DNA of 64,000 nt, from contig NC_089431.1 in NCBI RefSeq assembly GCF_026210795.1, positions 1,922,001-1,986,000 of the forward strand. The letters are read 5' to 3'. Below, in pieces: positions 3,197 to 64,000 of this stretch. The notes below the pieces were generated by a model, which did no database searches, was not told where the DNA came from, and saw only the letters and a list, made by a program, of their open reading frames with translations. The DNA comes from Rhizophagus irregularis (taxonomy: Eukaryota). Within the stretch, counting starts at the first letter, position 1, and each line of letters begins with the position of its first letter. Position numbers and translations under genes: made by a program.

Positions 3197-6100
3197 TTAT
3201 TTGGTATTAACATGATAAGTATTCGAATTTTTAATAAAACTATTTAATAATTCTTGCATATCTTTTATTTGTTGTTTAAATTCATCTCTCATTTGTTGCT
3301 TAAGTTCTTCAAATGATTTATTTTCATTAATTGGTTCTGGAATTTTTAATAAATTTCTTAATCGATTACTAATAAATGGAGGTGAATTAAATTCAGTTCG
3401 ATTATTATCAATTGCATTAATTAATTTATAAACCTTATTAACAGGTATATCATAATGACTAAAAATAATTAAATAAGATATAATTAGAAAAATTAGAGAT
3501 ATTAAACGTTTAAAATAAATATACTGTACTTACATCCAATCTGGAAACCATTTTTTATTACATCTTTGATAAGGCAACATGTAAAATAATTCAATTTCCA
3601 TAATAATCTTTTTTAAAAATTATAATAAAGTCAGATATATATTAAAATAAAAATATTTAATATTTATTTATTACCTTTGCCTTTTGAAGTAAAAATTCTT
3701 CATTCTTATCATAATTTTCGATCGCCACATTAAGCAATCCAATAAACAAATTCATAAGGTAAATTACCGTAAAAAATGTAAATAAGACTAAAAAAAATGC
3801 CATCGAAGGAGGAGTTTGATGAGAAGTCCATGGTGATAAAGAATCAGAGTTACCTATATATATATATATATATTTAAATTAATAATTAATTTTTGATTAA
3901 AAGTAATTATATAATTATATAAATTATTACCTATAAGAAGTAAATACATAGCTAAAAGTGAAGTTGGAAATAAACTAAACATATTTGTATTTGAATTAGG
4001 AGATTGAATTAATGTAGTTCCATCCGGATTAATAGAATTATCGTCATCATTTTTATTTGGTTTTAAAAGAATGAAAAATGCATGAGCAAATCCAGATATA
4101 ATAAGAAATAAGACTATTAAAAATGGAAAGACCTTTTTAGCAACCCCAATCATTAAAACAAAATAAATTCCAAATGATTCAAATACTCGAAAAAATAATA
4201 AAAATTTAATATTTAGTAATAAATTAGAAAATGCTATAATCCAAAGTGGTGGTTTTCCATAGATAAGCCAATATATTGATGTTATAATAGATAAAAAATA
4301 CGCCCCTACATCTATTAATAATAAAAAGATTAAATATAATAATGTACCGTATATATATACAAAATATTTGTATATCAATAACTTACCAAATAAGTTCCAT
4401 AAATCAGTAAAATAAAATTTTGGATTCCATAAACATTGTCTAATCTCAAAAGTTAAATGTATAAAACCAAGTAAAATTGAAATTATAAAAAGTATATTAT
4501 TATTATCTTGTTCTAATGTAGAAGCTAATGCAAAACAAAGAAAAAAAATAGTATAAATTAACCAAATTAAATAATAAATTTTTTCAAAAATTTTCCATTT
4601 AAAATCTATAATAGCAGCAAAATTCCACCATTTATAAAAATTATTGGTATCTATATTATAAAAAAGAATAGGTTTTGGTTTATATAAAATTTCATTCCAA
4701 TTATTATAATTATTATCTTGATATTTACAAATTTGAGGAAAAGGAATAATAAAACTAATAATTTCTTCCTTAATTTTTAAATGATGAGTTAAACTTTTAT
4801 AAAATGATATTAACCTTTTAATATAACTATTATTTGATGGAATGGATTTTTCAATAGAAATATTATTTGAATATGCATGAAGGGAAGTATTTGTTGAATT
4901 TTTGATAGATAAACAAATAGGAATAGATGTATATATAATATATTTTGTTACTAAATGAGAATAATGATCACATAATTTAGGTAAATATAAACTAATAAGT
5001 GCCATGTAACTGTAATCTGCTGAATTCTTTTTAATTAATTCAATAATTTTATCAAAGATTAATTGAATAATATGAATAATAAAATCGTTTTTTTCATTAA
5101 TTACTACTTTTAATATTTCTGATCCAAATTTTAAAAATTCAATTGGATCATTTATAATATATAAAATTAATGCCTTATATTCTTCATCTTTATCTTTTCT
5201 ATTTTCAATCATTCTAAATATATTAATAAAATTTGGTGATGGTAATGAAGTTTGTAAATCATTAAATTCATCATTTAACATTTTTTGATAATCACGTGAA
5301 CTCCAATATTTATTATTCCAAAATATCGAAGTTTTAATGAATCTTCAACTGTATAAATAAAGATTCCTTGTTTAGTAATTAATGCCAAATCCTGATTATT
5401 CAATAATCTATATGAATATATGTCATCATATTTAAAATAAATTAAAGAATAATTATTCTGATTTTTTTCCAATTTATCATTATTTTGAGAATTTTTAATT
5501 CCAATAAGTTTAACTAAATTAGAAGTTTTTCTTTCAATAATAAATTGAAATAGTTCCCCACCTAATTGAACCATATGATTTTCTGGAAATTTATCATTAT
5601 TCTTATTATTATTGATATCTTTAAGCATATCTTGTATAGTTTTGAAAATTGGCAAAGTATAAATGTTATTATGATAGGTAATGTTTAACATTTGTTGAAA
5701 TATATTTTTATTCAATCCATCCGTAATCCAAATATTATTTTCAATAACAGAAATTTTTTTGTTTGATTTAGTTATAATAATATTTTGAGAGTTGCCAAAA
5801 CTATCACTAATATCAATCGCATCAGAAGTATGAAAAGGATCTAGAAATTTGTAAAAGTTTCATTATTGCAGTATGTCCTAATGATTAATCCTTCAGAATC
5901 ATCTTCTAAAGTTACAAATTCTATTGGAATGCCGTCTACGAATAAAAAAAAAAAGCAAATAAAATTATTATCAGATATTAAAATAATTACTAAAGTAATA
6001 CTAACCATATCTTGAAATCCACATTCCAGTTTTCATTGAAAATATTACAACTTCTGTACTAATATTTAATGCTAATAATGTTTGATTTTTATTTATTACT

Positions 6101-7000
6101 ATATTATTAACATTAAGTGAATCACCAAGTAAATATCGGTATTCCATATCAAAAGTCATAGTCAGTAAATTTCATTGAGTAAATCCATATTCATTAAAAA
6201 GAAATAACTTTGTTTGATACAAAAGACAACCAATATGATGTTCTTTTATGTTTTTAGGAATTTTTATATCATATATTTGAGGAATTGTATCTGTTGTTGG
6301 TCTATTATTAACAAAAGGGTACTTATAAATTTTGTAATTTATTGATATTTTATCTAATATTACTAGAATTAAATCTCCATTTGAAAGAAATCCAATCGAA
6401 ATTTCATCATTCGAAGAAACAAATAGTTTATCCGCATGCATAAGTTGAAGAAATTGAACTTTGTCAAAATCAATAAGACCTACACCTAAAATTAAATAAT
6501 TATTATAAAGTTGATTTTGTCCATAAAGCATATTTTTGTAATAATAAAAGATACTTACGAAATTTAAACCTATTTCCATAACATAATAATAAAAATTTTT
6601 GATATAGCGCAAATTTATAAACTTTGTGGGGTGGATTAAGGTTGAAATACAAGTCAAGTTTTTGTTGTCCATTTTCTTCGATATTAGCTAGCCATCCAAT
6701 AATTGCATTATATTCTTCACTATAAGTAACAACATAATTATTTTCTTTACTATGAGTATCAATATATTGAGAAATTATAATTTGCTCAATTCTTTTCCCG
6801 GATTTTTCCCCATAATTTGTATTTTTTTCAAGTCCAAGTACGTTCACATTCTTTAAACCATAAACAAGACTCGACATTATCATTTTAAATTTAATTTTTC
6901 TTGCATTTGTTGTTGTTGTTGATAATGTTGGTAACATATTGTTATTTATTCCCGTTATTAGTCCTTTTACTCCTTCCATTTCAACTACAGTGCTTTCCAT
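3197..7000 (-). pseudogene. TRP-like / ion-transport cation channel, multi-exon, disrupted
   Basis: Six-TM block with IDFKW, LLFFRVFESFGIYF, pore helix SLLAMYLLL, and S6/TRP-like exons (MNLFIGLLNVAI; IIMEIELFYMLPYQR..WFP). In-frame TGA at 6172-6174 (FTQ*NLLT) and frameshifts near 5280 and 5870. Confidence 0.8.
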
Positions 7001-9480
7001 TGTCACGTAAATAAAATTTTTATTCAATAAAATTTACGATAAAAAAAAGTTCTTTTTTATTGGAGTCATTTATAATACTTCGCATGATCACTCCGGGAAC
7101 GATATTTATAAAATTTGTGAAACATGATAACAATGAATAATATAACAATGCGTCGAAATCGTCAAATTTATATCGTCCTTTCATTTTGAGAACTTTCATG
7201 TTTAAATTAAATAAATACTTGTCAAAAAAATCCATTACCGATGGGATAAAGACACATATTAACGTAAGTGATTATACATTTTTTGATCAATGTAATCGAT
7301 GTATCTAAATTTTTATATATGTGCATACGATTTAGTCGTTTAGATCAAGGATTCAATACACTTTTTTTTTTATTTTAAACTAGGAAAGAAAACCAAAAAA
7401 GTGAACGTTTCATGATTTTTGGATCATTCAATCAGATTGCTTGTTGTTCAGTGAAGATTAACTTTGGATGCTTTTTTTAAAAAATTTTACTGCTTTAATA
7501 ATAATCACGGCGGGACGGATTCATCTCGGCGAATGCATATTCTAATTGCTTATAAACCTTGAGTTTGTAGTTAAGAAAGTTACTGAGTTACAAAATTAAC
7601 AAATTAAGTATCTTACAATAAAGAATTAGCAATAAATATATGCTTATTTAATACAAGCGCCAAATATTTCAAGTCATAATATGAGCCTCACTAATATGCT
7701 ATTAATGCTATTCATAGTTTATTAAATACAAATAGATTAAATAGATTCCATTCTGCTTTTACAAATTACATAAATACCGAATTTCTGCTACAGGGACTTT
7801 CTGTAGTATCAAAAATTCACTCCCTGGAGTCGTTAATTCATTATGAGAATATTATATTTATATCTTGGAACAAAAAACTTCAGGCAAAAATATTATTATT
7901 AATTATATTATAATTTATCGCACATTTTGTCATACAGTATCACGCGATTCTTGAATAATAGAATTGAGGACCTCATAATATACCATAATTATCACATTTT
8001 TTGGAAATGGCACATTACATAAACTGTTAGCAGATAATATTATTAGGAAATAACTTTGTACATATGTGAGATGATTTATTTAGCGTATTCAATAACATAT
8101 TTACGATCTGTTTCTAAAAACTTTTTAATTAGTAAATCTTTTCAACTTCTTTACATTTCTCTCTTCCCAAATTCCTGAAAAAAAAAATACTCACGTGATC
8201 AACAAATATAGCCACTTAATATTAATCTTTAGATATGCTTCATGCTAAATCAAACATGAGACACAATCAATTATCAAATCACTACTTCGCACCCTTGTTG
8301 CTTATTTATGATATGATTCCAAACTTTTAATTTCGTATATTAAAGACCAAATTAACGATTTATCTCGAGTCACATGGAAACAGCGTAACGATAATTTCAA
8401 AGCCTGGTAAGGATTACAAACGATCCAAAATACATTATAAAAGAAATTTCGAGCATTTACCTACACACGATCTCACGAAGAGATCATATTAACATTTTTG
8501 TTCCGCCTTATCATAAACACAACCCCCGTATTGATCCGTCTGGCATCAAATTTTTTACATTCAGGATCATGGTCTTCACATAGAGATGAACTTTTATTTG
8601 AACAAATAGATTTATTTGATATATTTCGGTTTGATTCTATTTTTTAAATTGTATAATAATCATTTAGTTACGTAATTAGTTTTTTTTATTTCTCTTTTTT
8701 TTTCTTTTTTTTGGTGCAGACACTTGGGTACTGGCGTACCTTCCTGTCGTTTTTTTTCCTTTTTTTTTTACCACTAGAGTGAAGTTGTCTCTTAGGCGAC
8801 TTGTTTTACAGTTTATTTTTGTACTACTTTTGATTCTATTATACAGTTTCTTTGTAATCTTTACTGGAACTTTTTTTACTCTGAGAAATAAAAATAAAAA
8901 ATAAAACATTAGATATGCTTCAAAATAATTTTTAATAATTTAGATATTCATTGTATAAATGATAAAGAGAAAACAGCCACAAGGATTGTTTGAATATAAT
9001 GTTATGCCATTTGGATTGAATTTGAGTAACTAATTTATAAAAGAAAAACACAAAATTAATCCATAATTAATTGCTTTTTTCAATCAACTTTTTGTTTTGG
9101 ATTTAAAAAAAAATTTTTTTTTTTATTTGACCTTATAAACAAGTAATGTAGAACAAATAATTAAATTGGTTATACAAGACTAAAATATTTATTTTGGATG
9201 AATTTAGGATTATGAAAATTACATAAGGATGATCGTCCAATATGTGAAATTAGACTAAATGTGTTAATATCATTTTAAACAAAAATAACAAAAATACAAT
9301 TCAACCATATAAATGGAACAAAAGAATTACCTAATCATCAATTATCATAACAATCATCATAAATTACATCATTGCATATCGAAAAATTACAAATCACAAA
9401 TAAGTTAACAATCGATTATAAAGTCCTGTATATTTTTCAAATTTTTTTTTGATTTTTATACATAAAAAAGTTTGAAAAAG

Positions 9481-10621
9481 ATGAGAATAGAAAGGTGGAC
9501 TTTAGAAGTTCTAGTTAACGAAATACCTCTTCAGGAATATGTAATTTCTGATTCAGTACTTGGAGTAAATATAATTAATTAATTATTAGATTTCTCCCTT
9601 TTTTTATCATATTCACGATTGATTTTTTTTCCTTATATTAAATAGGCCAGTGCATCTAACGCATTGAAATCATATGTGGTCGAAGGAGATCGAAAGAAAT
9701 TTTGGTATAATATTCAAAAAATTATACTTGACTACAATGAATCATTAACTTTTTTATTTATTTATTTATTTTAGCGACTCGGCTACTTTTGTTGCAGTTC
9801 CAGCACCTGGAACACATTATAGCATAGTAGTTTCTCCGAGCACAAGTGAAATCGCACCCAAAATTTATGTAGATGGTATAAATGACGGCTATTATGTAAA
9901 CAGTAGTACTTCGTCATATGGCATCGTTAAGGGTTTTTATAATGGAAATAAAACAATGAGATATGATTTTATTTTCGATAAAACAGAATGGATTGAAACG
10001 GATATTCCACAAAGAACTAAATATGGTGGACTTGGTGCAATATCTGTTTATTTCTATAAAATTATAAATAAGTATAAATCATCAAGAAATTATAATTCAG
10101 AAAAAGCATTTGAAAAGGTAAAGATTCCGGAAACGAAGAAATGTTTTGACGTGGGTCTTACCACAAAATTTTCCGAAGGCATAGAATATTATGGTTATGG
10201 TTCAATAAATTCGATAATAAGAGAAAATGAACCATTAGCTGTACTTCACATTAATTATCGTTTAGCTGATTGGCTTATTCCGATGGCTACTAATACGAGT
10301 TATACGGCCTCTGCTGTTTACCGAACAAATACACAAAATTCCTGTGCTTCTGCTTCTACATCTACCTCATCTACATCTACCCCATCTACATCTACCCCAT
10401 CTACATCTACTACTGCTACTTCGTCTGCTCCTGCGTCTACCTCTTCTTCTGCTGCTACTAATATAGACATTAAAAATGAAGTTAATAATTTTGAAAACGA
10501 TACTGAAAATAAACCTTTAATTACTCAATCTGTCAAAAAGAGGAAACGAAGATACCAAGAAATGATCATAATATTGGATTCGGATGAGGAGTGCACACAT
10601 GAAGTGGTGGAGTTAGATTAA
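9481..10621 (+). CDS. Fungal hypothetical protein (DUF7918-like N-domain) with Ser/Thr linker, NLS and C-terminal SIM-like motifs; 3 exons
   Basis: ATG 9481 (MRIERWTLEVLVNEIPLQEY). Two GT-AG introns splice in frame into ORF 9956..10621. Motifs IYVDG, LGAISVYFY, PLAVLHINYR, KKRKRR, IIILDSDEE. Confidence 0.8.
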
Positions 10622-12371
10622 TATGACAAATGTTTTATTTTTTCAATAATATAGTTATCTAAATATTTAATGTTCTAGAGATAGTAATTTGTTCCTGTTG
10701 TATTAAAAAATGTTACGTGATACCCCTATAAATAGTAGCTAGCCTATATATATAAATGCACTTTATTAGCTAGCATTCAAAAATAAATGTATAATAAAAA
10801 AAAAAATTCATAAAATTCAAAACTCATTCCCATTTTCTTCAATTTTTCATATAACAGATTTTTATTAATTCTAGTGAACAAAAGACCGTTTCAGAATATG
10901 TACTGTAATTCAGTTCTTTGAAGTAAATACTGTATAATAAGATTGGCTTAATAAAATAAGCTAGAGTTGAGATCCGTGTATCCATGTATTCGTGGTATAT
11001 ACAGAGCGACAAGGATCTTGCTTTGGGAAGAACAAACAAGAGAAAGCAAGAGAAAGAGATTTTGATTGGGGAAAAAGATGCTACAAATCATACAATGAAT
11101 CCATAATTTGATAGATAAGTGCCATCACCAGCTGGCCCGATGGTTATGTCAGAATTACAAGATCATTTTGCTACCTAAATTCGAAATGTCACATATGGTG
11201 CTCAAGAATAAAAGAAAAATCCAATCAAGGACAGCATGCTAACCTAGTCACATTTCAGATTTTGAATGTTTCTTTTGTACAAGTTAAGAGAGTACAAGTA
11301 TTGCAAGGTCATCAAGTGCACCGAGGAGTACACTTCTAAGACGTATGGGCATTGCGAACAAATCAATGACAAACTGGGTGGAGATGGATCAGGATGTGAA
11401 CGGGCAAGAAACATCTTACTCAAATTGTTAACGGAGGGTCAGGTTTTGGCCTACTTTGGGACATAAACCTGTAGGGATGCGATATGAATGATGCAGATAA
11501 TGCATAAATAATATAATATCTATCTATAGGCTTTATAATTTATTTTTTATTATCAAGTAATTTATATAATACATAAAATTTTAAGGCATTTTGTTTAAAA
11601 CTGATCCTTGTTCATTGTCTTCCTATATACAATTATTAGAGTTCCGCCTGATCTAAAATTCAAAATCCATTATCCAAATCACTAAAAAGATAAAAGGAAT
11701 ATTAGTACGTTCCCAAAAAAAGAACCTCTTTTTCAACAGAGGCGGAAAAAATATTAAAAAAGACAAAGGTTTAAACCATTTTATAATAAAAAAATAGATT
11801 TTATATTTATTATTAATCATTTAGATATTAAAACAGATGAAAACTAAACCGAGAAAAGTAATTTAATTGTTTCTATTGTTTTTCAATTGTGAATGGCCAA
11901 AAAAAACTATCCGTGGATACTATTCGTTAGAATACACGGATAACTAAAAGGCATATCGGCGGATTTGCGTAATCATATTAATCATATTATAGAAATGATT
12001 TGTTCGGCTGACATGCACAAAGTGCACATGTGCACATTAGTGTTTAAATGTGCACAGTTGTACAACAAAAAATGTGCACAAATTATTACTAAAAATAGAT
12101 AAATTATATATAAAAAAAGCAACTTTACATAATGATTTGTTATGATTTCTTAATTTAGTAATAAATTTATCAACTTGTGCACATGACTTTTGGTTCAGAT
12201 CTTACACACTGCTGACATGTTGATTGCGCAAATCGTTTAAAAGGGAGTTCATGTTTTTGTATGACAAACATTTTTTCGAAGTTTAAATTAACTTGTTTGC
12301 ACACTAATTCTTCGACTGTTTTGTTGTTTTTTTTTTGTTGAATATAATTCCAAAGTATCAAATTTTATTGA

Positions 12372-15099
12372 ATGAACGAAAATCATCGTGTCCACTTTAG
12401 ACCTACGAGAAGAAATAGGTAACTGAAAAATATGAATTGATTATTTTCTTTATATCATGTATGAAATTTATTCGAATTTTATAGTTATCAACTCAATGTC
12501 GAGGAAGCAATAGCCAATCTTAAACTATTTATTACTCAGGAACGGGAGATTGGAGACGTCTTTCAGGAATATCAGCGACAGAATATTGACGTTGATGTTC
12601 ACATAATTGCAGGCGATAAATGGAACCAAAAACTGTTTAAAGTTCACAAATTGATTCTGAAGGAACGAAGTGATTATTTTAAAGTAGCACTATCCGATCA
12701 ATGGGTGCGAAAAGATCCAACCGGAATCATTATCTTTCGAAAAGAGAATATATCACCGGAAATATTTGTTTTGCTCCTTGAGTAAGGCACATGATATTAA
12801 TAGTTTGTTAATAGTTTCTGATTATTTTAATACAGTATTTGGTGACCATTTTGTTGATTTGCAGATACATTTATACCGGTAAGGTTTCGGTGCCACTTTG
12901 CGATACAGACGTTGATTTTGTGGATTTGATTGGAGCGGCCGATGAGATTTTGCTTCCACAATTGGTTATTTCCTTAGAAGGATACCTTGTTGACATGTAT
13001 TTATCAGAGTCCACAAAATTACTTGAAGTCGAAACATGGTTGCAATCAAACATCGTTCGCTTAGTTTCACTGAAAAAAGGTGGGTACATCGTATTTTATA
13101 AAATGGGTGTCATATTTGTCTCATTTTCATGTATACTTTGTTTCAGATATTCCGGAAGGTTTGAGCTTAATTCGATCACGATTTGAAAAACATGTTCGAA
13201 TAACAGGTCATGATTCCATCCAAGAGATCACCGACAATAAAAATGCAAGCTCTGTAGTATGTTCGGAAATATTTTTTTTTTGTGGCAATCAAATCTCATG
13301 ACAAATTAAATAAAAACGCTTTTTTATTTATACTTTCTATAGGAATCCACGATATACGTTAATACCCTTTTAAAAGTTTTCAACAAATATCATCACATGG
13401 TTCAAACCATATTCGAAAACGAAGCCGGATTTGTAGCATCATTTAATGAAGTCCGTTTTTAATTCATTTACAATTAACATGTTTTAGGTCCTTTTATATA
13501 AATTTACATCATTTTTTCGTTTTCTTAAGTTTTGCCGTGAATTTATCAATCGCAACGTACCATTTTTTTCATCACCATCACAATTGCTTGTGGAATTTTG
13601 TGACATATTTCTTCGCCGGAATGAAAAAAGTTCAATGGTCGATAATAAGGATGTTATTAACAATATTGTAAGAGATCAAGAACAATATTCAGCTTTTAAA
13701 TAACGTTTATACAGCAAATTTAATTAAAAGTTTTTTTTTTATTTAAGATAAACATATTTAAATATCTCCATGACAAAGATTTTTTCAAAAAATTTTATTC
13801 CCAACTGTTAGCTGAACGTCTTTTGACTCAAAGCTCTTTCTCCGAGGAGGCGGAATTGAACATGATTTCCAGATTAGAGGTTTGGTCAGCATATTGGTTA
13901 ATCTTAATATCTGAATTGCTTTAATATTGCGTTCCTTATATAGAATGAATGTGGCCTCGAATATACATCCAAAATGCGACTTTTGTTCCATAATATTGGA
14001 TTAAGTAAGGATCTTAATAATCAGTTCAAGAAACATTTGAATACTGATGATGCAGAACAAGGTGGTGCAATAATTTTGTTTGTTTAACTAAATAATCATT
14101 CTATCAATTAACTGTAAACTGTTGTTGTGTCTTTTCAATAGTTGAATTTTACATTTTAGATATGGAAGCCTTGCCAATGTCACCAGTTGTTTCCAACCTG
14201 ATCATTCCAGATGAAGTGTGTTAAAATCGTGAATTTTCTTGTCTTAGTATCTATTTGGTTGCCTTATGATATTTTATTTTCACAGATAGAGAAAACTTTT
14301 CAACGTTTCAAGAAATTTTATAAAGACAAATATCCTTCCCGTAGACCAAAATTGCTACACCATTTATCAAAAGGTGAACTAAAAGCAAATTACCTAAAGA
14401 CACCAAAAGTATTCCAGGTGAAATAAATTGGCTTTTTTTTTTAGAAATCATTATATTAGTAAGTAGAACTAAATAAAATTTTCCCATAGGCATCAACATA
14501 TCAGATGAGCATTCTTCTACAGTACAATAATAACACTTCTTATACCCGTGAAGAATTGCTTCAGAATACGGGTATAAACCAAGATTTATTGGATCAACAA
14601 CTAAAATATTTAACTGATTTAAAACTTTTACTTCTTGATAAGACAACGTACGACTTGAATTTTGAGTTCAATAGGTAGGTTGGTTCATGAACATCTTTGA
14701 AGTTACCGCATGATCTAAATTTAATGTCACGTTTTCATTTCCCACAGTGAAGCATTTCAAATCACATTAAAAGATCCTGAAGAAGCAATGCAATTTCATT
14801 TTGAACTCCAACGTAGACTTGTGGAGGAAAGGAAATTCCAAATTGAGGTTTGTATATTTTTTTTTTTGATATTTCATTACTATTATCTTACGTGATATAA
14901 TAATTCATTGTAGAGCACAGTTTTTCAAACTATACGTCATCATAGAGGAATTAGACATGATTCATTAGTATGTGAAGTTGTCATGAAACTTGAACATAAA
15001 TTCCTTCCAGCACCCTCTATGATTAAAAAAGCAATTAATAGTCTCATAGAAAGAGAACATATAGAGTATGTAGATAAGGGGTATAGAAAAGTACTTTAA
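12372..15099 (+). CDS. BTB/POZ domain fused in frame to the C-terminal half of a Cullin-1-like protein; ~12 exons
   Basis: BTB motifs ([46 protein letters not shown]) splice in frame into cullin motifs ([70 protein letters not shown]). Stop TAA at 15097-15099. Confidence 0.88.
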
Positions 15100-16654
15100 T
15101 TTAGAGTTAGTTACATAATTTTTTTTTTGTTTTTGTGACAATGAAATCTTTTTTGTGTAAAATCTTAATTTTAATTGATTTAAAACTTTAATATACTGTT
15201 ATACTGTATATGTTTTATACAAATTTTTTGTTTTGCTTTTTTTTCTCTTCAGAATTAAAGAATTACAAAGAAGTTATGTAAACTTCATTTACAAAGTTTT
15301 AAGAACTATGTATATTTCTTTTAATAGATAATAATAAAGATAAAAATAAAAATTAATAAAAGAATAAAGATTAATTTATAAAATCCAGTTCCAGCGGAAA
15401 AATATTAAAAAAAGACCATTTTATAATAAAAAAATAAAAATTTATATTATTTAGCCATGGCAATCATCAAAAGCTGTGCAAAATCTGTATAGAAATGGAA
15501 CGGAATATTGTCTTAGCTGTACTCCTATTAACATTAGGTGGATCACCAAGTAAAGAAACAACTTTGATACACAAGACAACCAATATGATGTTCTTTTATG
15601 TTTTAATTGAATGAATAATATTGTTATGTGTCAAAATCGTTACGACGTTACGTGATATTAATTACACCAAATTTATATCGTCATTTTCATTTTGAGAAAT
15701 GTCACGTTTAAATTAAATAATTGATCGATGTAATCGATGTACAGTATCTAAATTTTACTAGTCATTTAGATCAAGGATTCAATATACTTTTTTTGTATTT
15801 TAGAGTTCAAACTTGAATGAATTGTAGGAAAAAAACCAAAAAATTGAACGTCCAATGATTTTGGATCTTTTAATCAGATTGCTTGTTGTTGTTCAAATAA
15901 AATTAACGTTCAGATGCTTTGTTTAAAACATTTTACCGTTTTAATAATCACGGCGCTCTCGGCAAATGCATCTTCTAATTGCTTATATATTCATTGTAAA
16001 CCTTGCTTATTTAATACAAGCGTCAAATATTTCAAGCAATAATATAAGCCTCACTAATACGCTATTAATGCTATTCATTAAATAGATTCCATTCCCACTT
16101 TTACAAGTTACATAAATACCAAATTTCTGCTTAAGAAGAATATTATTTTTATATCTTGGAACAAAATCTTCAGGCAAAAATATTACTAATTATATTATAA
16201 TTTAACGACCGAGTTATAGATTCATTAAAAATCACGATAGAATTTATACATATTGATATGTGAGATGATTTATTTAGCGTGCCAATTCAATAACTGATAA
16301 CATTTCTAAAAACTTGTTAATTAGTAAATTTAGGATATATAAGGATGATTTTATACCTGACAAATACTGTGACACGTAACAAAATTGTAAAACTCCTCTG
16401 TTAAATATGTGAATTAGACTAAATGTGTAATAGACTAAATGTGAGAAATAAAAGTCATAATGTCATTATTATAATTAGAACAAAAGAATTACTTAAATAT
16501 CATAAAATCCATAACAATCACATAAATTACATCATTGTATTGGTTAAATGTTCAAAATTTTTTTGACAATCATAACAATCAGTCGACTATAAAATACAGT
16601 ATATTTCTCATTTTCATCTTACTTTAGACTTTTATACATAAAAGTTTGAAAAAG

Positions 16655-17847
16655 ATGAGAATAAGAAGGTGGACTTTAGAAGTTTTAGTGAACGAAATAC
16701 CTCTCCGAGAATATGTAATTTCTGATTCAGTACTTGGAGTAAATATAATTAATTATTAGATTTTTTTTTTTTAGTATCATATGTATCATATTCAAATAAA
16801 TGATTTCTTTTTCTTATAATAAATAGGCCAGTGCATCTAACGTATTGAAATCATATGTGTTCGAAGGAAATCGAAAGAAATTTTGGTATAAAAATTCAAA
16901 ATTTATACTTGACTAAATAAATCATAACTTTTTATTTATTTATTTATTTATTTTAGCGACTCGGCTACTTTTATTGCAGTTCCAGGACCTGGAACATATT
17001 ATAGTATAGTGGTTTCTCCAAGCATAAGTAAAATCGCACCCAAAATTTATGTAGATGGTAGAAATGACGATTCTTATGTAAAAAGTAGTGATTCATCATT
17101 TAGCATCGTTAAAGGTTTCCATAATAGAAATAGAACTATAAGATATGATTTCATTTTCGACAAAACAGAATGGATTGAAACGGATATTCCACAAAGAACT
17201 AAATATGGTGGACTTGGTATAATATCTGTTTATTTCTATAAAGTCAAAGAAAGGTATGAATCATCAAGAAATTATAGTTCGTATTTGAGCTATGATCTAA
17301 ACAAAGATTTTAAAGGAGTAAAGATTCCAGAAACTAAGAAATATTTTGACGTGGCTCTTACCACAAAATTTCCGAAGGCATAGAATGTTACGGTGATCGC
17401 TCATCATATAAAATAGTAAGAGATGATGAACCATTGGCTGTACTTCACATTAATTATCGTTTAGCTGATTGGCTCATTCCGATAGTTGCTAATATTTATA
17501 CACAAAATTCCTGTGCTTCTTCTTCTACATCTACCTCATCTACGTCTTCCCCATCTACATCTACTACTTCTACTTCGTCTGCCCTGGCGTCTACCTCTTC
17601 TTCTGCTGCTACTAATGTAGACATTAAAAATGTCAAAAAGAGGAAACGAAGATACCAAGAAATGATCGTCTCTTCTGCTGCTACTAATGTAGACATTAAA
17701 AATGAAGTTAATAATTTTGAAAGCGATACTGAAAATAAACCTTTAATTACTCAATCTATCAAAAAGAGAAAACGAAGATACCAAGAAATTATCGTAATAT
17801 TGGATTCGGATGAGGAGTGCACACATGAAGCGGTGGAGTTAGATTGA
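16655..17847 (+). pseudogene. Paralog of 9481..10621 with 1-bp frameshift
   Basis: Same exon structure as the first copy. ACAAAATTTCCG replaces ACAAAATTTTCCG at ~17370, splitting it into ORFs 17009..17383 and 17434..17847. A sequencing error in the T-run cannot be excluded. Confidence 0.75.
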
Positions 17848-18109
17848 ATATGACAAAACTCATCGAAAATATAGAAATAGTTGTATTAAAATGTTACATG
17901 ATAACCTTATTAATAGCTAGCCTAAATATCTCAATGCATTTTATTAGCTAGGATTCAAATATAAATGTATATTCAACCCCGCTAAAAAAACCAAGTTTTC
18001 ATATACAATTTTTAATCTAAAAAAATCGATAGATTGACTTAATTTTAAAGACATACTGTAATTCAGTTCTTTGAAGTAATATAGTAAGATTTGCTTAATA
18101 AAAATGAGC

Positions 18110-18704
18110 TAGAGTTTAGATCCATGTATTCGTGGATATGTTTCCGTGATAAAATACAATATCCGTAATCCCTATAAAAAAATTGAACAGGTAATCCATA
18201 TCCATATAATACGGATGATTCGGATAATGCAGATAACGCGGATAACTGTGTAATATCTAGGGTTTTATAATTTTATTTTTTTATTCTCAAATAATTTATA
18301 ATAATATATAATATTTTAAGACATTTTGTTTCGCCGTTCATGGTCTTCCTATATTAGATCTAATTCAAATCCAAATCACTAAAAAAGTAAAAACAAAGGA
18401 ATATTAGCACGTTTCTAAAAAAAAACCTCTTTTCAGCTTACAATTCCAGAGCCCAGTATTCAAGAGACCGAAGTCTAGGTCCAGGAGGAGGGATAAAGGA
18501 AAAGGACGAAAGAGAAGGAAAGGGCAGAAAAAATATTAAAAAAGATAGGGTTATCCCATTTTTATAACAAAAGAAATAAATTATCATTATTTTTTTTAAT
18601 AAAAAAAGGACTATCCGTGGATACTACCCGAATAATAAAATGAGTATCCGCAATCCGTTATCCGTATGAATACACAGATAATGGATACATGGATCCAAAT
18701 TCTA
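18110..18704. mobile_element. hAT-type MITE
   Basis: Termini TAGAGTTTAGATCCATGTAT / ATACATGGATCCAAATTCTA with 8-bp TSD AAATGAGC/AAATGAAC. An older counterpart starts at 10962. Confidence 0.8.
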
Positions 18705-18899
18705 AAATGAACGAATATGTGCATTTCACAAATTAATTTTTTATATAATAATTTTGCCAATCATGTTTTTTTCTCCAAATTTCTTTAAAAAGAAAGATTA
18801 AAAAGGAGTATTTTCGAAAGTTTAAATAAAGGAGTGCATTTGTTTGTACATTAATTCTTCGGCTGTTTCGTGGTTTTTTTTGTTGACCAATTCTGGAGG

Positions 18900-20008
18900 A
18901 TCAAATTTTTATCCACTTTAAACTTACAAAACAGGTAACTTATCAGTTTCCGATTGATTATTTTCTTTATATCATGTATGAAATTTATTCGAATTTTATA
19001 GCTATCGACTCAATGATTTTCTAGGAGCGATAAATGAAACCAAATACTTTTTAAAGTTCACAAATTGGATCGAAGTGATTATTTTAAAATAGCACTATCC
19101 GATCAATGGGTGCGAAAGATCCGAACGGAATCATTATCTTTCGAAAAGAGAATATATTACCGGAATTGTTGATTTGCAGCTACATTTATACCAGCAAGGT
19201 CTCGGTGCCACTTTGCAATACAATCTTGTTGACATGTATAATCAGAGTCCACAAAATCACTTGAAGTTAAAACATGGTTGCAATCAAACATCATTCGCTT
19301 AGTTTCACTAAAAAAGGTGGGCGCATCATATTTTTAAAAATGGTTTCATATTTGTCTCTTGATTTTTTATTCTCATGTATTCTTTGTTTCAGATATTCCG
19401 GAAGGTTTGAGCTTAGTTCGATCACAATTTGAAGAACATGTTTGAATAGCAGGTCGTGATTCCGTCTAAGATATCATCAAAAATAAAAATGCATTTTTTT
19501 TTGACGATCAAATCTCATGATAAATTGAATAAAATGCTTTTTATTTATACATCCACGATATATGTTAATGCCTTTTTAAGAGTTTTCAACAATATCTCAT
19601 AGTATAAATCATATTCGAAATCGAAAACGAAGCGGGTTTTGTAGCATCATCTAATAAAGTCCGTTATTAATCCATTAGGTCCTTTATATAAATTTACATC
19701 AATTTACGTTTCTTAAGTTTGCGATAATTTATTAACTGCAACGAACTTTGCACAGACCCATTTTTGTCATCATCACAATTGCTTGTGGAAATTTGTGACA
19801 TTCGCCAGAATGAAAAAAGTTCAGTTGTCGATAACAAAGATGTTATTAACAATATCAGATATTGTAAGTGATCAAGGACAATATTCAGCTTTTAAATAAC
19901 GTTTGGACAGCAAATTTAATTAAAAGTTTTTTTATTTAAGATAAACATATTCAAATATCTCCATAACAAAGATTTTTCAAAAAATTTTATTCCCAACTGT
20001 TAGCTGAA
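18900..20008 (+). pseudogene. Truncated, deleted copy of the BTB-cullin gene
   Basis: Nucleotide match to 12370-13818 with many deletions. Homology stops abruptly after CTGTTAGCTGAAC. Confidence 0.88.
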
Positions 20009-20489
20009 CCCCAATGATTATGAGCGCTGGTACCCCAAACTTATCTTAGACAGTGTTGTTAATAATAGTACAGCCCGGAGGGTGATCTTCAGCTCGAAAG
20101 ATTTTTTGCTGAGCTACTCCTGTGCGACAAAAATATGCGGATCACCAGACAGGTCTGTGCGACATATTAATTCACATATAATCGAAAAGAAATTATGTAT
20201 ACTAACCTTTAGTCTATTTTTTTCCCGAACAAACATGAGAAAATGTGAAAGAGTGCTTAGTTCAACACGGGGCCTACCACATAAGTAGATAGTGATGACA
20301 AAAGCATATGTTATGAAGGGCTGAGAACTTCGCAATTTCGAGATCGCCGTTAGACCAACCTTGAGTCTTTCTGGTAGATCTCGTTTACATGTGCCCTGCC
20401 CAGCGAAAACAATCCATTTTAAGTCTTATTATTTCCTGTTAATCTTTTTTTGAATCTACCACCAGCAACAGTAATAATGTTATAAGCCT

Positions 20490-20652
20490 CAATTGCATTA
20501 TTCTTGGCGATAATTTCGATGATATTTTTACGTTAGAGATCTCATGCATTTGTCTAGATAATGGAATCTTCCTTCTTGAGGTATGGTATGATCAAAACCC
20601 GGAAATTGTTATTCCGGAAAGGATACGAAAAATTAAGGAGTTGTTTGTCTAG
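20490..20652 (+). pseudogene. C-terminal fragment of Vsr/DUF559-like endonuclease
   Basis: Translates CICLDNGIFLLEVWYDQNPEIVIPERIRKIKE. A homologous longer copy lies at 40520-40941. Confidence 0.55.
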
Positions 20653-20926
20653 CATCCAAAAAGTTTCGGTCTCCTATAATTAAATAATCTTGTAATTCTC
20701 TGTTTTAATGACAGATAAATATCGTAAAATTGGCTACACGTAATAAATGGCGAATGTACAGTCATAGGAGTCAGTAACCACAAATGCAATCAATAATACA
20801 TCACCGCATTAATCATCACACATGTATTGTATAAATATTTATTTATTTATAAGTTTAGTTTTTTTTCTCACGTCTTTTTTATTTCTTAAGTCTACAATAT
20901 TCCTGGTTGAATACTTTACAGGAGCC

Positions 20927-22090
20927 ATGGCAGAAATCTATAATAAAGAAGTTCGTGGGGGCGGAGAGAGACTATACAAAAAATGCTTGTAACAAACTCA
21001 AAGAAAACCATATTTTATGTAGGACTCAGAATATAATGACACCTTTCGGTTCCGAATGATGTGCCTAGACAAATTTCAGCCGTTCATAATTATCACGTTT
21101 TGGGACTCCTGGGGTCTTCTTTGGACGTTCTCCTTTCAGCTGTCAAAGGAGATGAAATTAGAGGAGCAAATGGAATATATAACAAGGAGTCTAGAACGAT
21201 TGGCGGAAAGTATAATGCTATACAACCAAATGTAAACTTGCGCCATCAACGGTGAGCGTCACGTATTCGAATCAAGGGGAAGTGATAAAATTCATGTTCG
21301 GTGCGTCGATTCGTTATCATTGGGAAATGTGCAGCCAGTAGCGGAGTCAAGAGTAGAAAAAATGAATGTGTTACGTTGGGCATCGGATGTGGAGAATGTT
21401 TTAACCGAAGAAGAATTGATCAAATGCAGACACAATTTGGGAAATTGCTCAGAGTCGGTTACTTGGGCGGCAATGTATGGTACCCACAGCCTCTCACGGA
21501 ACGTGTTGTCTTTACGTGAACCCTCGCTCTACTCAGGAAGGAAAATCAAGTATTGAGCATCAAAGAACAATTGTCTCAAGTGCCAGTACGTGATAGAACA
21601 GATTGGTCGCCATCAAGTTGCAGTGATAATTTCATTTTAGTTGAAAATCTGAAGAATCTCGTATAGCAACCTTAATCAAATATGAGGTTCTTGAATCTTG
21701 ATAGTGATCCACGAGAACTAATTTACTATATCAATCGTGTTGCTGAATTTGGCTTCAATCACATAATTATTGTCGGAGAGACTGAATATGGAATGATCTT
21801 TATAGATTGTTATGGTCGGGTTTTTATGTGGGATGATGAGAGTCCAATGTTATGGCCACTTGGAAATTCTCCAGAAGAAGTACCAAAACAGACGATAAAG
21901 GGAAAGATGTGTTAGGATGGTTCGTACGTATATGAGTATATTAGGAAACCTCAATGTATGTATACAAAAAATTATAACAGTATTGCGTATTAATTATGAT
22001 GTTATAACTTAATTCTTTGTACACATTTTCTTTCAGATATACACCCTGAAGCGAGAGAAGGAAGTAAAAACAAGTGCTCAAATTATTAAA
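20927..22090 (+). pseudogene. Disrupted gene with SUKH-like (SMI1/KNR4 superfamily) C-terminal domain
   Basis: Fragmented ORFs. IIVGETEYGMIFIDCYGRVFMWDDESPMLWPLGNSPEE resembles the SUKH-3 GE..ID..GRV..LG.S.EE pattern. Confidence 0.5.
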
Positions 22091-22844
22091 TATTTACAAT
22101 ATCAAATGAGGTTTTAGTTATATCCTGTAAGATGCTCGTGTGTATAATATTTTTTAAAACTTTTATTACCGATATGGGAATGCTTTTCCCCTTTTCTCCG
22201 CTGTCAAGAAAGAATAAACTGGGCAGCTGATATAAAGACGTCAAAAACTCTAATCGTGATTATTAAAAAAGATATATATATAATCTTTCTTTCTTGAGGT
22301 ATGGTTTAAAGAACGCGAAAAATTGAGTTCATTGGTCAAACATCCAAAGATTTTTAACTATAAATCATGTAACTCTATCAGTCAAGGAAGATGTCTTAAA
22401 AAATTTGGAGCAAAATTTATTTATTATGGTTGGCATAATAAAATTTTTGATATAGCATCATCAATCAATTTCGCATTCTCATTCTTAAGCTCAGCATTTT
22501 CACCCTCAAGATCGGCAATGCGTTGTTCCAATAATTCAAGCTGATCAATAATATTTTTATAGAAGATATAAAATATTCAAAAGTCCGCCCCCTTCGAAGC
22601 TATGCTTCTTCAGGGTGAAGCAGAAAGATTATAGAGCTATTTTGTTCAAGAGTGTTTAAGTTATCACCCCGCGGATCAAAGATCAAGGGGGCATTCTGCT
22701 AAGAAATTTGCAAAGAAAAAAGTGTTATAAAGAACCAAATTTCCGGGGCCGCGTAGTCTCAGAAAATTGCCAAGAAAATTTTTTATACATGCGAAAAATA
22801 AATAAAAAGGTTCGGGACTTTGCCCGTGGTTCGTGATGTCTATA

Positions 22845-23330
22845 CTAGTATACATGATTATTTTTTTTGATTATCTCTTCTACACGACGTTTCTTATTTG
22901 GGGGTTCTTCACTAGCTGATACCCTATCCTTTAACAAACCCACTTTAACCTCTAAAATCCTTTTCACGTTCTTGCGCAATTCGGTTGAGTCCTTGAGTGC
23001 GTCTTCTGTTAGTGAGATTCGATATCGTACAGTAGATACCTTCGATGCCAATCGGTTGCTATTTACATAAAAAGTTAGGACTATGCGCTAGTAATGCACG
23101 ATGCCATATACAGTATATATTCATGATAATGTCAGTTAGTTTTTGTGCAAAGCGAAAAATAAAAATCTACATTACTTACGTCCTCAACCTTTCATGCCAT
23201 AACTTCTGGGTATTTCTTCGATTACCTTGAGAAAATCACGTCCATTAACCTCTTCCTTTCTAAAATTTCAATCTCGACATTTACGGGACTTCTTTCGTCC
23301 ACTCGTTCATATGGCCGGCAAACGCTATAT
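22845..23330 (-). pseudogene. Fragment of Crinkler-type REase-fold protein C-terminus
   Basis: EGIYCT..YRISLTEDALKDSTELRKNVKRILEVKVGLLKDRV..EPPNKKRRV, frameshifted. Confidence 0.55.
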
Positions 23331-23559
23331 AAATGTGCTTCAGTCGAGTTGTAATGTACTGTAATTCTAGAGTAAACATACATATCAATAAATGCTATTA
23401 TGCTATAAATATTGCGAGGAAAAATTCTTGGGAAGTACAGTTATGTATTTCGTCAAAAAATATAGATAATAGTGAAACGACACGATATCATGATATATAT
23501 AAGAAATAAATCTTGTTAAATATCCAATTGATTCAAAATCGGATCACATTTTATCCCGA

Positions 23560-24698
23560 ATGTCGCCGAAGTCGTCGCATTCTTGATGCTCTGAAAAATC
23601 TACTCAAACCACATTCAGAAATAAAAGACAAACCACTGAGCGAAAGCAGGTGAGTGAGTTCATATGCAAGTTATTTATTTCAATATCTGTCCAGTGTTAA
23701 CCTGTATGAATGAATGTCTCCCTTGTAAGATTGGCTCGAAGATAACTTTAGAAGAATACAATAATTTTCTTATTCGTAAAGAGTCTTCTGGGTACAAATA
23801 CCAACGAAAAAGTGACGGTGATGTATATGTAATCGACATGTTACTTCACTAAAAATATTTTGAGGTCGCTAACAGAGGAGTTTTCTTTAACCCACCGATA
23901 GTTACTAATGGTGATGGATGTAAGAGAATTCCGATTCTTGACCTATATATAATTGATTATTGATATTCACACCCTTCCTTCCTTTAGTCCATTTTGATCC
24001 TACTGTAAATGGAGGATTTATTGCTGCAGATGTTGCAGTCGCACCACACTTGAATCATGTCCAACAACCCATTGTCCTATACCCTGGCCCTCCACCTGGA
24101 GATAAAAACGTATTTTTTTGAGGTTTGATTTGCTAAATTTGATTTATGATTCTAATATTAATATTTCATCTAGGGGAATCCGCATGCTTGAATAATCTGC
24201 GAAGTGGCTAATTCCCAGAGTATTGGCCAATTGATCAGAAAATGTCAAATTGGTTAAATGTAGTTCATGTTCGATACGTTATTGGTATTAAATTGCATGA
24301 TAAAAGGACAATAACTGATAACCGAGGACGTTATCACAGGTCAATGACAGCATTACTGTTTCGACAAGGAGTAGCCGGATATCAAATAGTAAGGTGCTAA
24401 TTTATAATTGTTATTTTTTTGGTCAAATCATCTTAATAACCTTAAAATATTTTAGTGGGATTTCGGTACCCACCAGCTAGGAAGAGAAGCGAGCAACACT
24501 TCTCTCACAGGATGTAATGCTCCTAATATCCCAGCATTCCAAATTAACAACCCAGTCAACCAAGTTTTCTGGGATCCGACAACAATTCCAGCTGCAGCTG
24601 GATACGTGCCAGCTCTTCCCCCTGCGGTTGCTCTTGTTAATTTTACTATCGATCTGTACGTAGTTCAGCAGGTAGTTTTGGACTACCAAGCAAATTGA
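23560..24698 (+). pseudogene. Uma2-like (PD-(D/E)XK) restriction-endonuclease-fold gene, multi-exon, disrupted
   Basis: ITLEEYNNFL..GDVYVIDM, IAADVAVAP, GNPHA*IICEVANSQS, VRYVIGIKL, WDFGT..TGCNAP. TGA at 24189-24191 plus frameshifts. Confidence 0.7.
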
Positions 24699-25234
24699 TG
24701 ATAAAATTATGTAATAAAATGTGCACAGACTCCTATGTATTAATCAAAGAACATCATGCATTCAATATTTATTCGATACATTACACACTCTCCACATCCA
24801 TATTTATGTAAAAAAAATGTGCAAGCTTTATTGATGTTTATTGAAAACATAATAAAATTCATCCTGAGTAATGTGGCTGTGAAAGATTTGCTCTATCTTA
24901 TCGATCCCCAATTCAGATTTTATCAGCAATTTGTTAAAATGCAGCTGGACCGTTAACATCCCTACTCAGAATATTTTTGTAATGAAGCTAGGAAAAAAAA
25001 TCACGGATGCATAACAACTTATCACACTAACTACTTTGCTAAGAAAAATTAAATTTGATTAATATGAAAAACTTTATTATTTTGTATGATATCAGTTGTC
25101 ACATGCGCAGTAAAGATGCATTCTCTTCATCTATAGGATTGATTAAACAATTCAGAACCAGTAATTGTGGGATAAATTTGTTTATTTTCTGATGTGCTGT
25201 ATTTATTAAATTTAATTATTTCTTACAAATTATA

Positions 25235-31998: not shown

Positions 31999-32850
31999 TT
32001 AATCACAATTGTTTCCTTCTGTACGTAGAAAATCAGCATAGTAGTTACTAATATGATTACCATAAAAACCAGCGTTTGAATCTCCGATGTAAAAGGTTTG
32101 ACACGTTTCAGGTGCCGAATAATAAAAGCTATTCTGCTGATATTGCTGTTGAGCCAAAAATGTATCAAGACCATCCGCATGACCATATTCATATGGTAAA
32201 GGGTTCATTTCATTTACTTGTTCTTGAGTAATGTTAGTACGACTTGTCTCTCTTACTTGACAGTTGATTTGTTTATAACTGCAGGGAACTCCATTCCCTT
32301 CTTGGTTTTCCGTAATAAAGTTTACACGACCTGTCTCTCTTACTTGACAGTTGATTTGTTTATAACTGCACGAAACTCCATTCCCTTCTTGGTTTCCCGT
32401 AATAATGTTAATACCACAACTTTCGTCTATTTGAAGGTTGGGTGATTTATATTTCTTATTACAATAAACGAAGTTGATACGAGGTTTTCTATGGCGTTTT
32501 TCGATATGATTTGGATAAATTTTGCTATGTTGTTCTTTAAGTAATTTAGTTAAATCCACATAGCATTTTTTTTCCTCCATGGTAGCTTCTCTCCATATGT
32601 GAGCAGCAACACGGGAGAGATTCTTTCCATCATAAGGTAAGGATTTCTTTACAACATGATTTAGACAACGTCGAAAAACCATAAAGTTGTTCATCGGTTT
32701 TGGTTGGCGGTTTGTTCTTCTAACTGTAGCTTGCGTTTGTAACTTACTTATCATATCACTTACTATATCTTCCGACAAAGGGAACAATATTTTTTTATCT
32801 ATCATTCTAATAATTTGTATGTCAACATTAGATAAAGAGTTGTCCTTCAT
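31999..32850 (-). CDS. MATA/SOX-type HMG-box transcription factor
   Basis: PKPMNNFMVFRR..NLSRVAAHIWREATMEEKKCYVDL..EQHSKIYPN. ATG at 32850; probable 5' UTR intron upstream. Confidence 0.9.
   Translation of the reverse strand: MKDNSLSNVDIQIIRMIDKKILFPLSEDIVSDMISKLQTQATVRRTNRQPKPMNNFMVFRRCLNHVVKKSLPYDGKNLSRVAAHIWREATMEEKKCYVDLTKLLKEQHSKIYPNHIEKRHRKPRINFVYCNKKYKSPNLQIDESCGINIITGNQEGNGVSCSYKQINCQVRETGRVNFITENQEGNGVPCSYKQINCQVRETSRTNITQEQVNEMNPLPYEYGHADGLDTFLAQQQYQQNSFYYSAPETCQTFYIGDSNAGFYGNHISNYYADFLRTEGNNCD
32241..32403. repeat. 87-bp in-frame tandem duplication within HMG gene
   Basis: Two copies of IT.NQEGNGV.CSYKQINCQVRET.R. Confidence 0.95.
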
Positions 32851-44780: not shown

Positions 44781-44884
44781 TTTCTTTCTGCCTCCTTTTT
44801 TGAAAGTAATATAAGTTTTGTTTTGAAACTTACATATTTTTTTTAAATTTATTTTTTTTAATTCTTTTTTTTTTTAATTTAAAA

Positions 44885-47460: not shown

Positions 47461-47462
47461 TA

Positions 47463-48834: not shown

Positions 48835-48930
48835 TATATACGAATCTTAACGGAACAGATTGGTAAGTTTCAAAGTTTCACTTTACTTCAAAACTTTTTT
48901 TAAATTTTTTTTTAAAATTAATTTTTTTAT

Positions 48931-63773: not shown

Positions 63774-64000
63774 TTTTTTTTTAATTTAATTTTAGTGTTT
63801 AGTTTTATGTTAAAATAAAAAAAAAATTAAGTGGAATCGCCGGCGATTCGAATAAGTTCGTTTTTTAAATAAAAAAAAAAATATATATATAATAATAATA
63901 TAAAATAAATAAATTTGTAACCTTCAATTATTTTATTTATTATTTATTTCTTTTTATTTAATCAAAATGCCAAAGACGATAAAAGAAAAAATTAAAAAAG

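What the first reader, a model, noticed from the sequence alone, without database searches (positions are those of the whole stretch)
14140..14945. Cullin moiety lacks the neddylation lysine (K to R) and conserved Trp residues
Seen: canonical IEAAIVRIMK aligns without gaps to [10 protein letters not shown], placing Arg (CGT 14935-14937) at the NEDD8 acceptor. The Rbx1-binding strand VLxxxxWP reads ILDMEALP, and RKLxWL reads RRPKLL. Known: K to R is the standard non-neddylatable cullin mutation. Inference: this is a NEDD8-independent or dominant-negative pseudo-cullin.
Basis: partly seen in the sequence, partly recalled or inferred. Interest (0 to 1): 0.75.

Follow-up and report, generated by a model that had tools for sequence, protein, structure and literature searches.

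The report
BTB-fused cullin lacking its NEDD8 lysine
A root-symbiotic fungus transcribes a gene that joins a BTB protein-binding domain to the back half of a cullin ubiquitin-ligase scaffold, with arginine where cullins carry their NEDD8 on-switch lysine; it likely acts as a switch-free, non-catalytic scaffold, and its former switch domain differs strongly between strains.

Summary
The window carries a 13-exon gene (12372-15099, +) for a 613-aa protein: a BTB domain fused to a Cul1-derived C-terminal half. It is identical to a Rhizophagus irregularis database protein, and RNA contigs join all 12 introns. Arg560 (CGT 14935-37) sits at the NEDD8 acceptor, where 141 of 142 diverse cullins have Lys. 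The rest of that motif and both Trp residues are also changed.

Related BTB-cullin fusions occur in Gigasporaceae: 2 of 4 keep Lys and 2 have Gln, so the loss is lineage-specific. A model still seats a stand-in Rbx1 strand in the groove (0.79 vs 0.00 control), possibly from memory of solved Cul1-Rbx1.

Two things are new here. The winged-helix domain that held the lysine is only 59-83% identical between the window's protein and its relatives, against 95-99% elsewhere, with 21 non-synonymous to 1 synonymous change in one RNA comparison. A tandem copy 6.5 kb downstream has decayed while this one stayed intact.

Best reading: a maintained, non-neddylated pseudo-cullin scaffold whose freed winged-helix is a diversifying binding surface. 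No biochemistry was done.

The parts
12372..15099 (+). 13-exon BTB-cullin fusion gene, 613 aa (exons 12372-12418, 12485-12781, 12865-13079, 13147-13256, 13343-13450, 13530-13667, 13748-13879, 13944-14061, 14142-14215, 14286-14417, 14490-14674, 14748-14847, 14914-15099)
   Evidence: Model equals database protein P0004. All introns are GT-AG; 11 are joined in RNA contigs and the twelfth (13257-13342)
12561..13000 (+). BTB/POZ domain (about residues 42-160)
   Evidence: Pfam PF00651 E 2.7e-8 on exon 2. 58-60% identical to the BTB of Gigasporaceae fusions. Not modelled with confidence
13147..14847 (+). Cul1-derived end of cullin repeat 3, four-helix bundle and alpha/beta domain; repeats 1-2 (Skp1/CAND1-hairpin end) are absent. 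Clear cullin similarity begins at or just before the phase-1 intron 13080-13146
   Evidence: Pfam PF00888 on 6 exons; CUL1 E 7e-79 over residues 158-607; Foldseek top hits are CUL1
14142..14176 (+). Rbx1-pairing strand, residues 389-400; Trp to Leu399 (TTG 14171-14173)
   Evidence: in the predicted Rbx1 interface; only 1 of 13 residues identical to canonical Cul1 over 387-399
14340..14393 (+). Second Rbx1-contact stretch, residues 432-449: Leu to Pro434, Trp to Leu436, then 440-449 fully conserved
14749..14760 (+). Residues 520-523: Glu, Ala and Gln at the positions of CUL1 K678, K679 and R681 (their role in the Cdc34-binding basic canyon is recalled)
   Evidence: Lys or Arg at these three columns in 124, 132 and 134 of 147 representatives
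14935..14937 (+). Arg560 at the NEDD8 acceptor position (CUL1 K720), at the end of the long helix 531-560
14938..15075 (+). Winged-helix B (WHB) residues 561-606, hypervariable between Rhizophagus strains
   Evidence: Pfam PF10557 E 4e-11; 23 of 46 positions variable among 8 sequences
18811..20009 (+). Decayed tandem copy of the fusion gene: stops, frameshifts, truncated in exon 7, no WHB
   Evidence: Self-BLAST and tblastn; about 9% substitutions and 13 exon gaps not a multiple of 3 in one global alignment, some probably parts of one event; seen as a second contig set in DNA runs X13 and X14

Best explanation
This is a transcribed BTB-Cul1 fusion with Arg in place of the NEDD8 acceptor Lys, which likely still holds Rbx1 but likely works as a non-catalytic pseudo-cullin scaffold whose freed winged-helix is probably a diversifying binding surface. 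Shown: the fusion, its splicing, the lost acceptor motif, the intact reading frame and the hypervariable winged-helix. Inferred steps: (1) An ancestral AM-fungal BTB replaced the Skp1/CAND1-binding N-terminal repeats of a Cul1 duplicate, hard-wiring the adaptor. (2) With no receptor to exchange, the NEDD8/CAND1/CSN cycle became dispensable, and the Lys was lost at least twice (Arg in Rhizophagus, Gln in G. margarita). (3) In Rhizophagus the basic patch for the chain-building E2 was also lost, so its own ligase activity is low. (4) The BTB dimerises or docks on a canonical Cul3 ligase, as CUL7 is coupled to neddylated CUL1. (5) The winged-helix now binds a variable partner, such as a parasite protein or a nonself determinant.
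For: Acceptor motif lost in 9 of 9 aligned Rhizophagus sequences, including R. diaphanus (mostly strain near-copies), against Lys in 141 of 142 cullins. The fold is kept while function residues go: hydrophobic columns stay hydrophobic in 30 of 31 (4HB), 33 of 36 (alpha/beta) and 15 of 19 (WHB), yet only 10 of 20 conserved WHB columns are kept, against 24 of 32 in the 4HB. AlphaFold2 gives a cullin fold with WHB blocks at pLDDT 80-93. Cullin part 270-613 with a stand-in Rbx1 scored 0.79 against a best control of 0.00. That mark was reached by 51 of 78 solved and 2 of 108 mismatched microbial pairs, and by 39 of 65 and 2 of 126 eukaryotic pairs; runs agreed in at least 94% of contacts and partner pLDDT was at least 73. 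Cul1-Rbx1 is a solved pair, so this shows likeness, not binding. The gene is maintained: all 12 introns are spliced and the frame is open, while the tandem copy decayed. WHB variation: 22 of 53 positions vs 34 of 560 among 6 database proteins (p 1e-11). Run X16 vs window gives 21 non-synonymous to 1 synonymous listed changes in the last exon vs 11 to 6 elsewhere (Fisher p 0.03; binomial vs site counts p 0.044). P0008 and P0009 are mosaics. Precedents are CUL7 and APC2, which are not neddylated (PMC9507964, passages); CAND1 grips CR1 and the WHB neddylation surface (PMC10156175, passages).
Against: No biochemistry. 2 of 4 Gigasporaceae fusions and 3 of 3 partial paralogs keep Lys, so fusion does not force the loss. 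One origin for the fusions is neither shown nor rejected (support 22/70), and the larger tree puts Gigasporaceae fusions next to their own Cul1 (98/92). The selection signal rests on one strain pair with borderline p, and only 22 of the 28 differences in that contig piece were listed. The variable WHB sites avoid conserved columns only weakly (p 0.09). The Rbx1-pairing strand keeps 1 of 13 identities. The BTB has no substrate-binding domain beside it, and its partner was not tested. The basic-canyon residue numbers are recalled.
Confidence: 0.45

Rival explanations
1. A slowly degenerating Cul1 duplicate: the WHB is vestigial and drifts under relaxed constraint, and the protein has little or no function beyond its BTB.
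For: Very long branch (about 1.5-1.7 changes per column). Many conserved residues lost. A decayed tandem copy shows duplicates arise and die here. Outside the WHB, X16 shows 11 non-synonymous to 6 synonymous changes, only moderate purifying selection. Patchy distribution among AM fungi.
Against: Open frame and 12 spliced introns, also intact in R. diaphanus. Hydrophobic core kept. Relaxation predicts WHB differences near the synonymous rate (1 of 37 sites there), but 21 of 146 non-synonymous sites differ.
Confidence: 0.22
2. A NEDD8-independent, constitutively active one-chain ligase: the altered WHB no longer clamps the Rbx1 RING, so no NEDD8 is needed.
For: Removing the autoinhibitory WHB rescues pcu1 K713R, and Cdc53 K760R is viable (PMC7582104 section 12). 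Conserved WHB residues at CUL1 761 and 764 are changed (761 only in the window's allele). Residues 440-449 are conserved and the Rbx1 model passes.
Against: The basic patch 678/679/681 is neutral or acidic, and the K472 position is Glu. There is no substrate-binding domain beyond the BTB. This reading does not explain WHB hypervariability.
Confidence: 0.2
3. A dominant-negative whose main role is to titrate Rbx1 (or BTB receptors) away from canonical cullins.
For: The Rbx1 groove is modelled as intact while activation features are lost.
Against: The Rbx1-pairing strand is poorly conserved. Contig data cannot give expression level. This reading does not explain WHB diversification.
Confidence: 0.1
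4. The protein is neddylated on another lysine.
For: Lysines exist at 548, 577, 581, 590, 591, 607 and 611.
Against: None is at the end of helix 531-560. The flanking motif is lost. 577, 591 and 607 are Arg in other alleles.
Confidence: 0.03

Closest known systems
Cul1/Cdc53 (SCF scaffold)
   Same: CR3 end, 4HB, alpha/beta and WHB; about 44-45% identity to AM-fungal Cul1 over 70% of the protein; top PDB and Foldseek hits.
   Different: No CR1-CR2, so no Skp1 or CAND1-hairpin site; BTB fused instead; acceptor Lys and its motif lost; basic patch lost; WHB variable between strains.
CRL3 (Cul3 with a BTB receptor)
   Same: A BTB domain and a cullin C-terminal domain in one assembly (CUL3 binds BTB receptors directly: PMC9507964, passage).
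   Different: Here they are one chain, the cullin is Cul1-derived, and no substrate-binding domain accompanies the BTB.
CUL7 (CRL7-FBXW8)
   Same: Atypical cullin starting at CR2/CR3, binds RBX1, is not neddylated, and is coupled to neddylated CUL1-RBX1 (PMC9507964, title, abstract start and passages).
   Different: CUL7 keeps the Lys and lacks helix 29. This protein is modelled with the long helix but lacks the Lys. Different N-terminal domains and an independent origin.
APC2
   Same: A cullin-family scaffold that is not neddylated.
   Different: Only distantly similar (E 6e-6); APC2 pairs with APC11 inside the APC/C.
Gigasporaceae BTB-cullin fusions (P0011, P0014, P0025, P0029; unstudied database proteins)
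   Same: Same architecture; BTB 58-60% identical.
   Different: Lys (2) or Gln (2) at the acceptor; Trp of WP kept in 4 of 4; closer to canonical Cul1.

Membership tests
Canonical neddylated cullin (Cul1) | Cullin homology region and WHB fold | tested here: met
   Pfam PF00888 and PF10557; AlphaFold2 and Foldseek
Canonical neddylated cullin (Cul1) | NEDD8 acceptor Lys within its conserved motif | tested here: not met
   Arg560; motif residues 553-562 changed
Canonical neddylated cullin (Cul1) | Three N-terminal cullin repeats that bind Skp1 and the CAND1 hairpin | tested here: not met
   CUL1 similarity starts at residue 158 against CUL1 301; BTB upstream
Canonical neddylated cullin (Cul1) | Binds Rbx1 through an intermolecular beta-sheet | tested here: inconclusive
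   Model passes, 0.79 vs 0.00, with a stand-in Rbx1, but this is a solved textbook pair; 25 of 47 interface residues identical to Cul1
Canonical neddylated cullin (Cul1) | Ubiquitin ligase activity | not testable with these tools
   Needs in vitro assays
Cul3 substrate receptor (BTB protein) | BTB/POZ domain | tested here: met
   PF00651 above cut-off; Atlas leads to Mucoromycota BTB clusters at 0.81, a lead only
Cul3 substrate receptor (BTB protein) | Binds the Cul3 N-terminal domain; dimerises | not tested
Cul3 substrate receptor (BTB protein) | Separate substrate-binding domain (Kelch, MATH, ankyrin and the like) | tested here: not met
   Pfam finds only BTB and cullin domains
CUL7-type atypical cullin | Not neddylated and coupled to another neddylated CRL | not testable with these tools
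   Loss of the site is shown; coupling is inferred only
Pseudogene | Broken frame or no transcription | tested here: not met
   Open 613-aa frame; spliced RNA contigs

The most novel reading that the evidence does not exclude
An AM-fungal immune or nonself-recognition device built from a cullin: the neddylation winged-helix, freed of its lysine, has become a hypervariable, recombining bait or sensor, and the fused BTB plugs it into the fungus's BTB/Cul3 network.
Probability: 0.2. Interest if true: 0.85.

Novelty: new variant of a known kind. Interest (0 to 1): 0.6.

Why it matters
The NEDD8 lysine is among the most conserved residues of cullins (141 of 142 here). This is a natural family of adaptor-fused cullins in which the site is Lys, Gln or Arg, so it allows a direct test of whether hard-wiring the adaptor makes the NEDD8/CAND1 cycle dispensable. 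The strain-level hypervariability of the winged-helix points to a new use of a cullin domain and to a candidate compatibility or defence locus in a key plant symbiont. No paper on such a fusion turned up in five searches of an open-access library, judged from listings only; subscription journals are not covered.

Tried and rejected
No whole genome is held, so Rhizophagus's own Cul1, Cul3 and Rbx1 could not be fetched; the trees lack a Rhizophagus Cul1. A scan of metagenome contigs for relatives found none confirmed among 81 pattern hits. The representative search gave no new fusion among its best 150 of 11,232 hits; a BTB profile hit 0 of 147, and fusions ranked lower cannot be excluded. The Atlas gave no usable hit for the whole protein. 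Earlier scan notes: nothing in three look-ups. The BTB could not be folded with confidence in two jobs. A mis-splicing artefact is rejected (RNA joints). A sequencing error is rejected (DNA runs X13 and X14 and RNA run X15 show 0 differences over the codon). Reads of X16 and X18 cannot report on codon 560, which lies too near a piece end. An alternative database model that splices further at the 3' end (P0006, P0147) had no joint in the RNA contigs laid, which is not proof of absence. A second intact WHB copy in the window's strain was not seen at 80% likeness, so the variants are read as alleles; P0007 and P0147 have close accession numbers and could be two copies or two haplotypes in one strain. 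Three papers wanted for WHB autoinhibition and basic-canyon residues were not held. PMC12816148 (passages) mentions no fusion. No supplements were read.

Full report
Gene and observation. The region is an AT-rich, intron-dense eukaryotic locus. A 13-exon model at 12372-15099 with 12 GT-AG introns gives 613 aa. It is identical to P0004, which its sources name as Rhizophagus irregularis. RNA contigs join 11 introns and the twelfth. One of them is 14848-14913, which creates [10 protein letters not shown]. Pfam finds BTB in exon 2, Cullin in six exons and Cullin_Nedd8 in the last. Human CUL1 aligns over residues 158-607 (E 7e-79), without gaps through the acceptor motif, so Arg560 (CGT) corresponds to K720. 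K720R is the non-neddylatable mutant used for PDB 4P5O (PMC9507964, passage). Leu399 and Leu436 replace the two Trp residues and Pro434 replaces Leu.

How unusual. Lys occupies the site in 128 of 128 non-fusion homologs (the distinct rows among the best 120 of 317 and best 120 of 314 hits, mostly vertebrate Cul1). It does so in 141 of 142 diverse representatives with a residue there (147 of the best 150 of 11,232 hits, three known rows dropped, 5 gapped). The change is not isolated. Of 20 WHB columns conserved at 80% or more only 10 are kept, and the losses include 552, 553, 555, 556, 557, 559, 560 and 562. The four-helix bundle keeps 24 of 32, and hydrophobic columns stay hydrophobic in 91 of 99 over the cullin part. 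AlphaFold2 builds a long helix 531-560 ending at Arg560 and a confident WHB, and Foldseek's best matches are CUL1. The positions of CUL1 K678, K679 and R681 are Glu, Ala and Gln, while 431, 432 and 435 stay basic. That these form the Cdc34-binding basic canyon is recalled; the canyon itself is described in PMC10873206 and PMC10950867 (passages).

The family. Two homolog searches found four further full BTB-cullin fusions, all in Gigasporaceae, and three partial paralogs. At the acceptor, Racocetra and Dentiscutata have Lys, both G. margarita proteins have Gln, and the three partials have Lys. All four fusions keep the Trp of WP; the second Trp is kept in 1 of 4. All 9 Rhizophagus sequences aligned, including R. 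diaphanus, have Arg. The BTB parts are 58-60% identical across the two families, more than the cullin parts (39-44%), which suggests one origin; I had no other AM-fungal BTBs for comparison. Trees of the cullin part place all fusions among or at the base of AM-fungal Cul1. The 34-row tree puts the Gigasporaceae ones beside their own Cul1 (98/92) and the Rhizophagus ones on a very long unresolved branch. The 18-row tree joins them with support 22/70, so one origin is neither shown nor rejected. No Rhizophagus Cul1 was available. The lysine loss is therefore lineage-specific and happened at least twice.

Rbx1. The Trp changes lie in the predicted Rbx1 interface, but residues 440-449 are identical to G. 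margarita Cul1, and 25 of 47 interface residues are identical against 99 of 213 other residues in 270-530. Residues 270-613 folded with a stand-in Rbx1 from a metagenome record scored 0.79 against a best control of 0.00. Runs agreed in at least 94% of contacts, and partner pLDDT was at least 73. The mark was reached by 51 of 78 solved and 2 of 108 mismatched pairs. Because Cul1-Rbx1 is solved, this shows likeness and not binding.

Selection. The window holds a tandem duplication: 9239-13817 recurs at 16404-20009. The second fusion copy has stops and frameshifts and ends in exon 7, with about 9% substitutions and 13 frame-breaking exon gaps in one alignment, some probably parts of one event. 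The studied copy has none, which argues that it is maintained. The WHB behaves differently from the rest. Residues 561-606 are 59-83% identical between the window's protein and six relatives with a complete, same-ended WHB, against 95-99% for 1-530. 22 of 53 WHB positions vary among six database proteins against 34 of 560 elsewhere. Four sites (569, 572, 576, 588) show three or four residues, and P0008 and P0009 join a window-like body to a P0007-like WHB. Against RNA run X16 the last exon has 21 non-synonymous and 1 synonymous listed changes (22 of 28 differences listed), and the rest has 11 and 6. The tests give p 0.03 and 0.044. The 14 listed of 20 last-exon differences in X18 fall in 10 codons, all amino-acid changing, partly shared with X16. 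Plain relaxation or conversion from an old paralog would raise synonymous differences as much, so diversifying selection is the better reading, on thin statistics. The acceptor Arg itself is fixed.

Mechanism. CAND1 grips CR1 and the unmodified neddylation surface (PMC10156175, passages), and both are gone here. I infer that fusing the adaptor removed the need for the exchange cycle. With the acceptor, its motif and half the basic patch lost, the Rhizophagus protein most likely holds Rbx1 as a structural partner and acts as a scaffold or decoy (0.45). It would then work like CUL7 without being a member of that family. The rivals are a decaying duplicate (0.22), a constitutive ligase freed from WHB autoinhibition (0.20; WHB deletion rescues pcu1 K713R, PMC7582104 section 12), an Rbx1 sink (0.10) and another acceptor lysine (0.03).

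Novelty. Non-neddylated cullins are known (CUL7, APC2). A BTB-Cul1 fusion, natural loss of the acceptor in such a family and a hypervariable WHB were not found in five searches read as listings; some searches served for background. Verdict: a real feature and a new variant of a known kind, interest 0.6.

Noticed in passing
window 9239-10989 and 16404-18137 (+): Tandem pair of genes with a weak DUF7918 match (E 1e-4 for 9749-10618) followed by a Ser/Thr-rich tract, about 76% identical; duplicated together with the BTB-cullin gene.
   Followed up: partly
window 20010-28000: A higher-GC block (0.34-0.37 from about 20000, against 0.23-0.31 in the flanking windows) begins where the pseudogene is cut. 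It holds a weak SUKH-3 immunity-protein match (21676-21912, E 0.012) and a 472-aa ORF with no Pfam hit (25238-26653, -).
   Followed up: no
window 32002-32889 (-): Intronless HMG-box ORF (PF00505, E 2e-7) with an internal 87-base direct repeat at 32239-32417.
   Followed up: no
window 3200-7300 (-): Long AT-rich ORFs with a weak ion-transport match (3857-5344, E 5e-4), probably a TRP-like channel gene in pieces.
   Followed up: no
window 54794-56066 (+): Protein-kinase fragments in different frames, probably a broken tyrosine-kinase-like gene.
   Followed up: no
window 44860-48840 and 60500-61270: Arrays of diverged repeats with periods of about 140-220 bases, part of them duplicated 12 kb away at 92% identity.
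   Followed up: no
window 63069-63785 (-): Reeler-domain ORF with a hydrophobic N-terminus (PF02014, E 1e-11).
   Followed up: no
window 13559-13560: Other strains carry a 12-base in-frame insertion here (P0003, P0007, P0008, P0145), and the pseudogene copy has one too, so the window's allele has the derived deletion.
   Followed up: partly
P0126, P0127, P0128: Gigasporaceae carry several fast-evolving Cul1 paralogs known only as partial proteins; they group with the fusions (100/99) and may be further fusions.
   Followed up: partly
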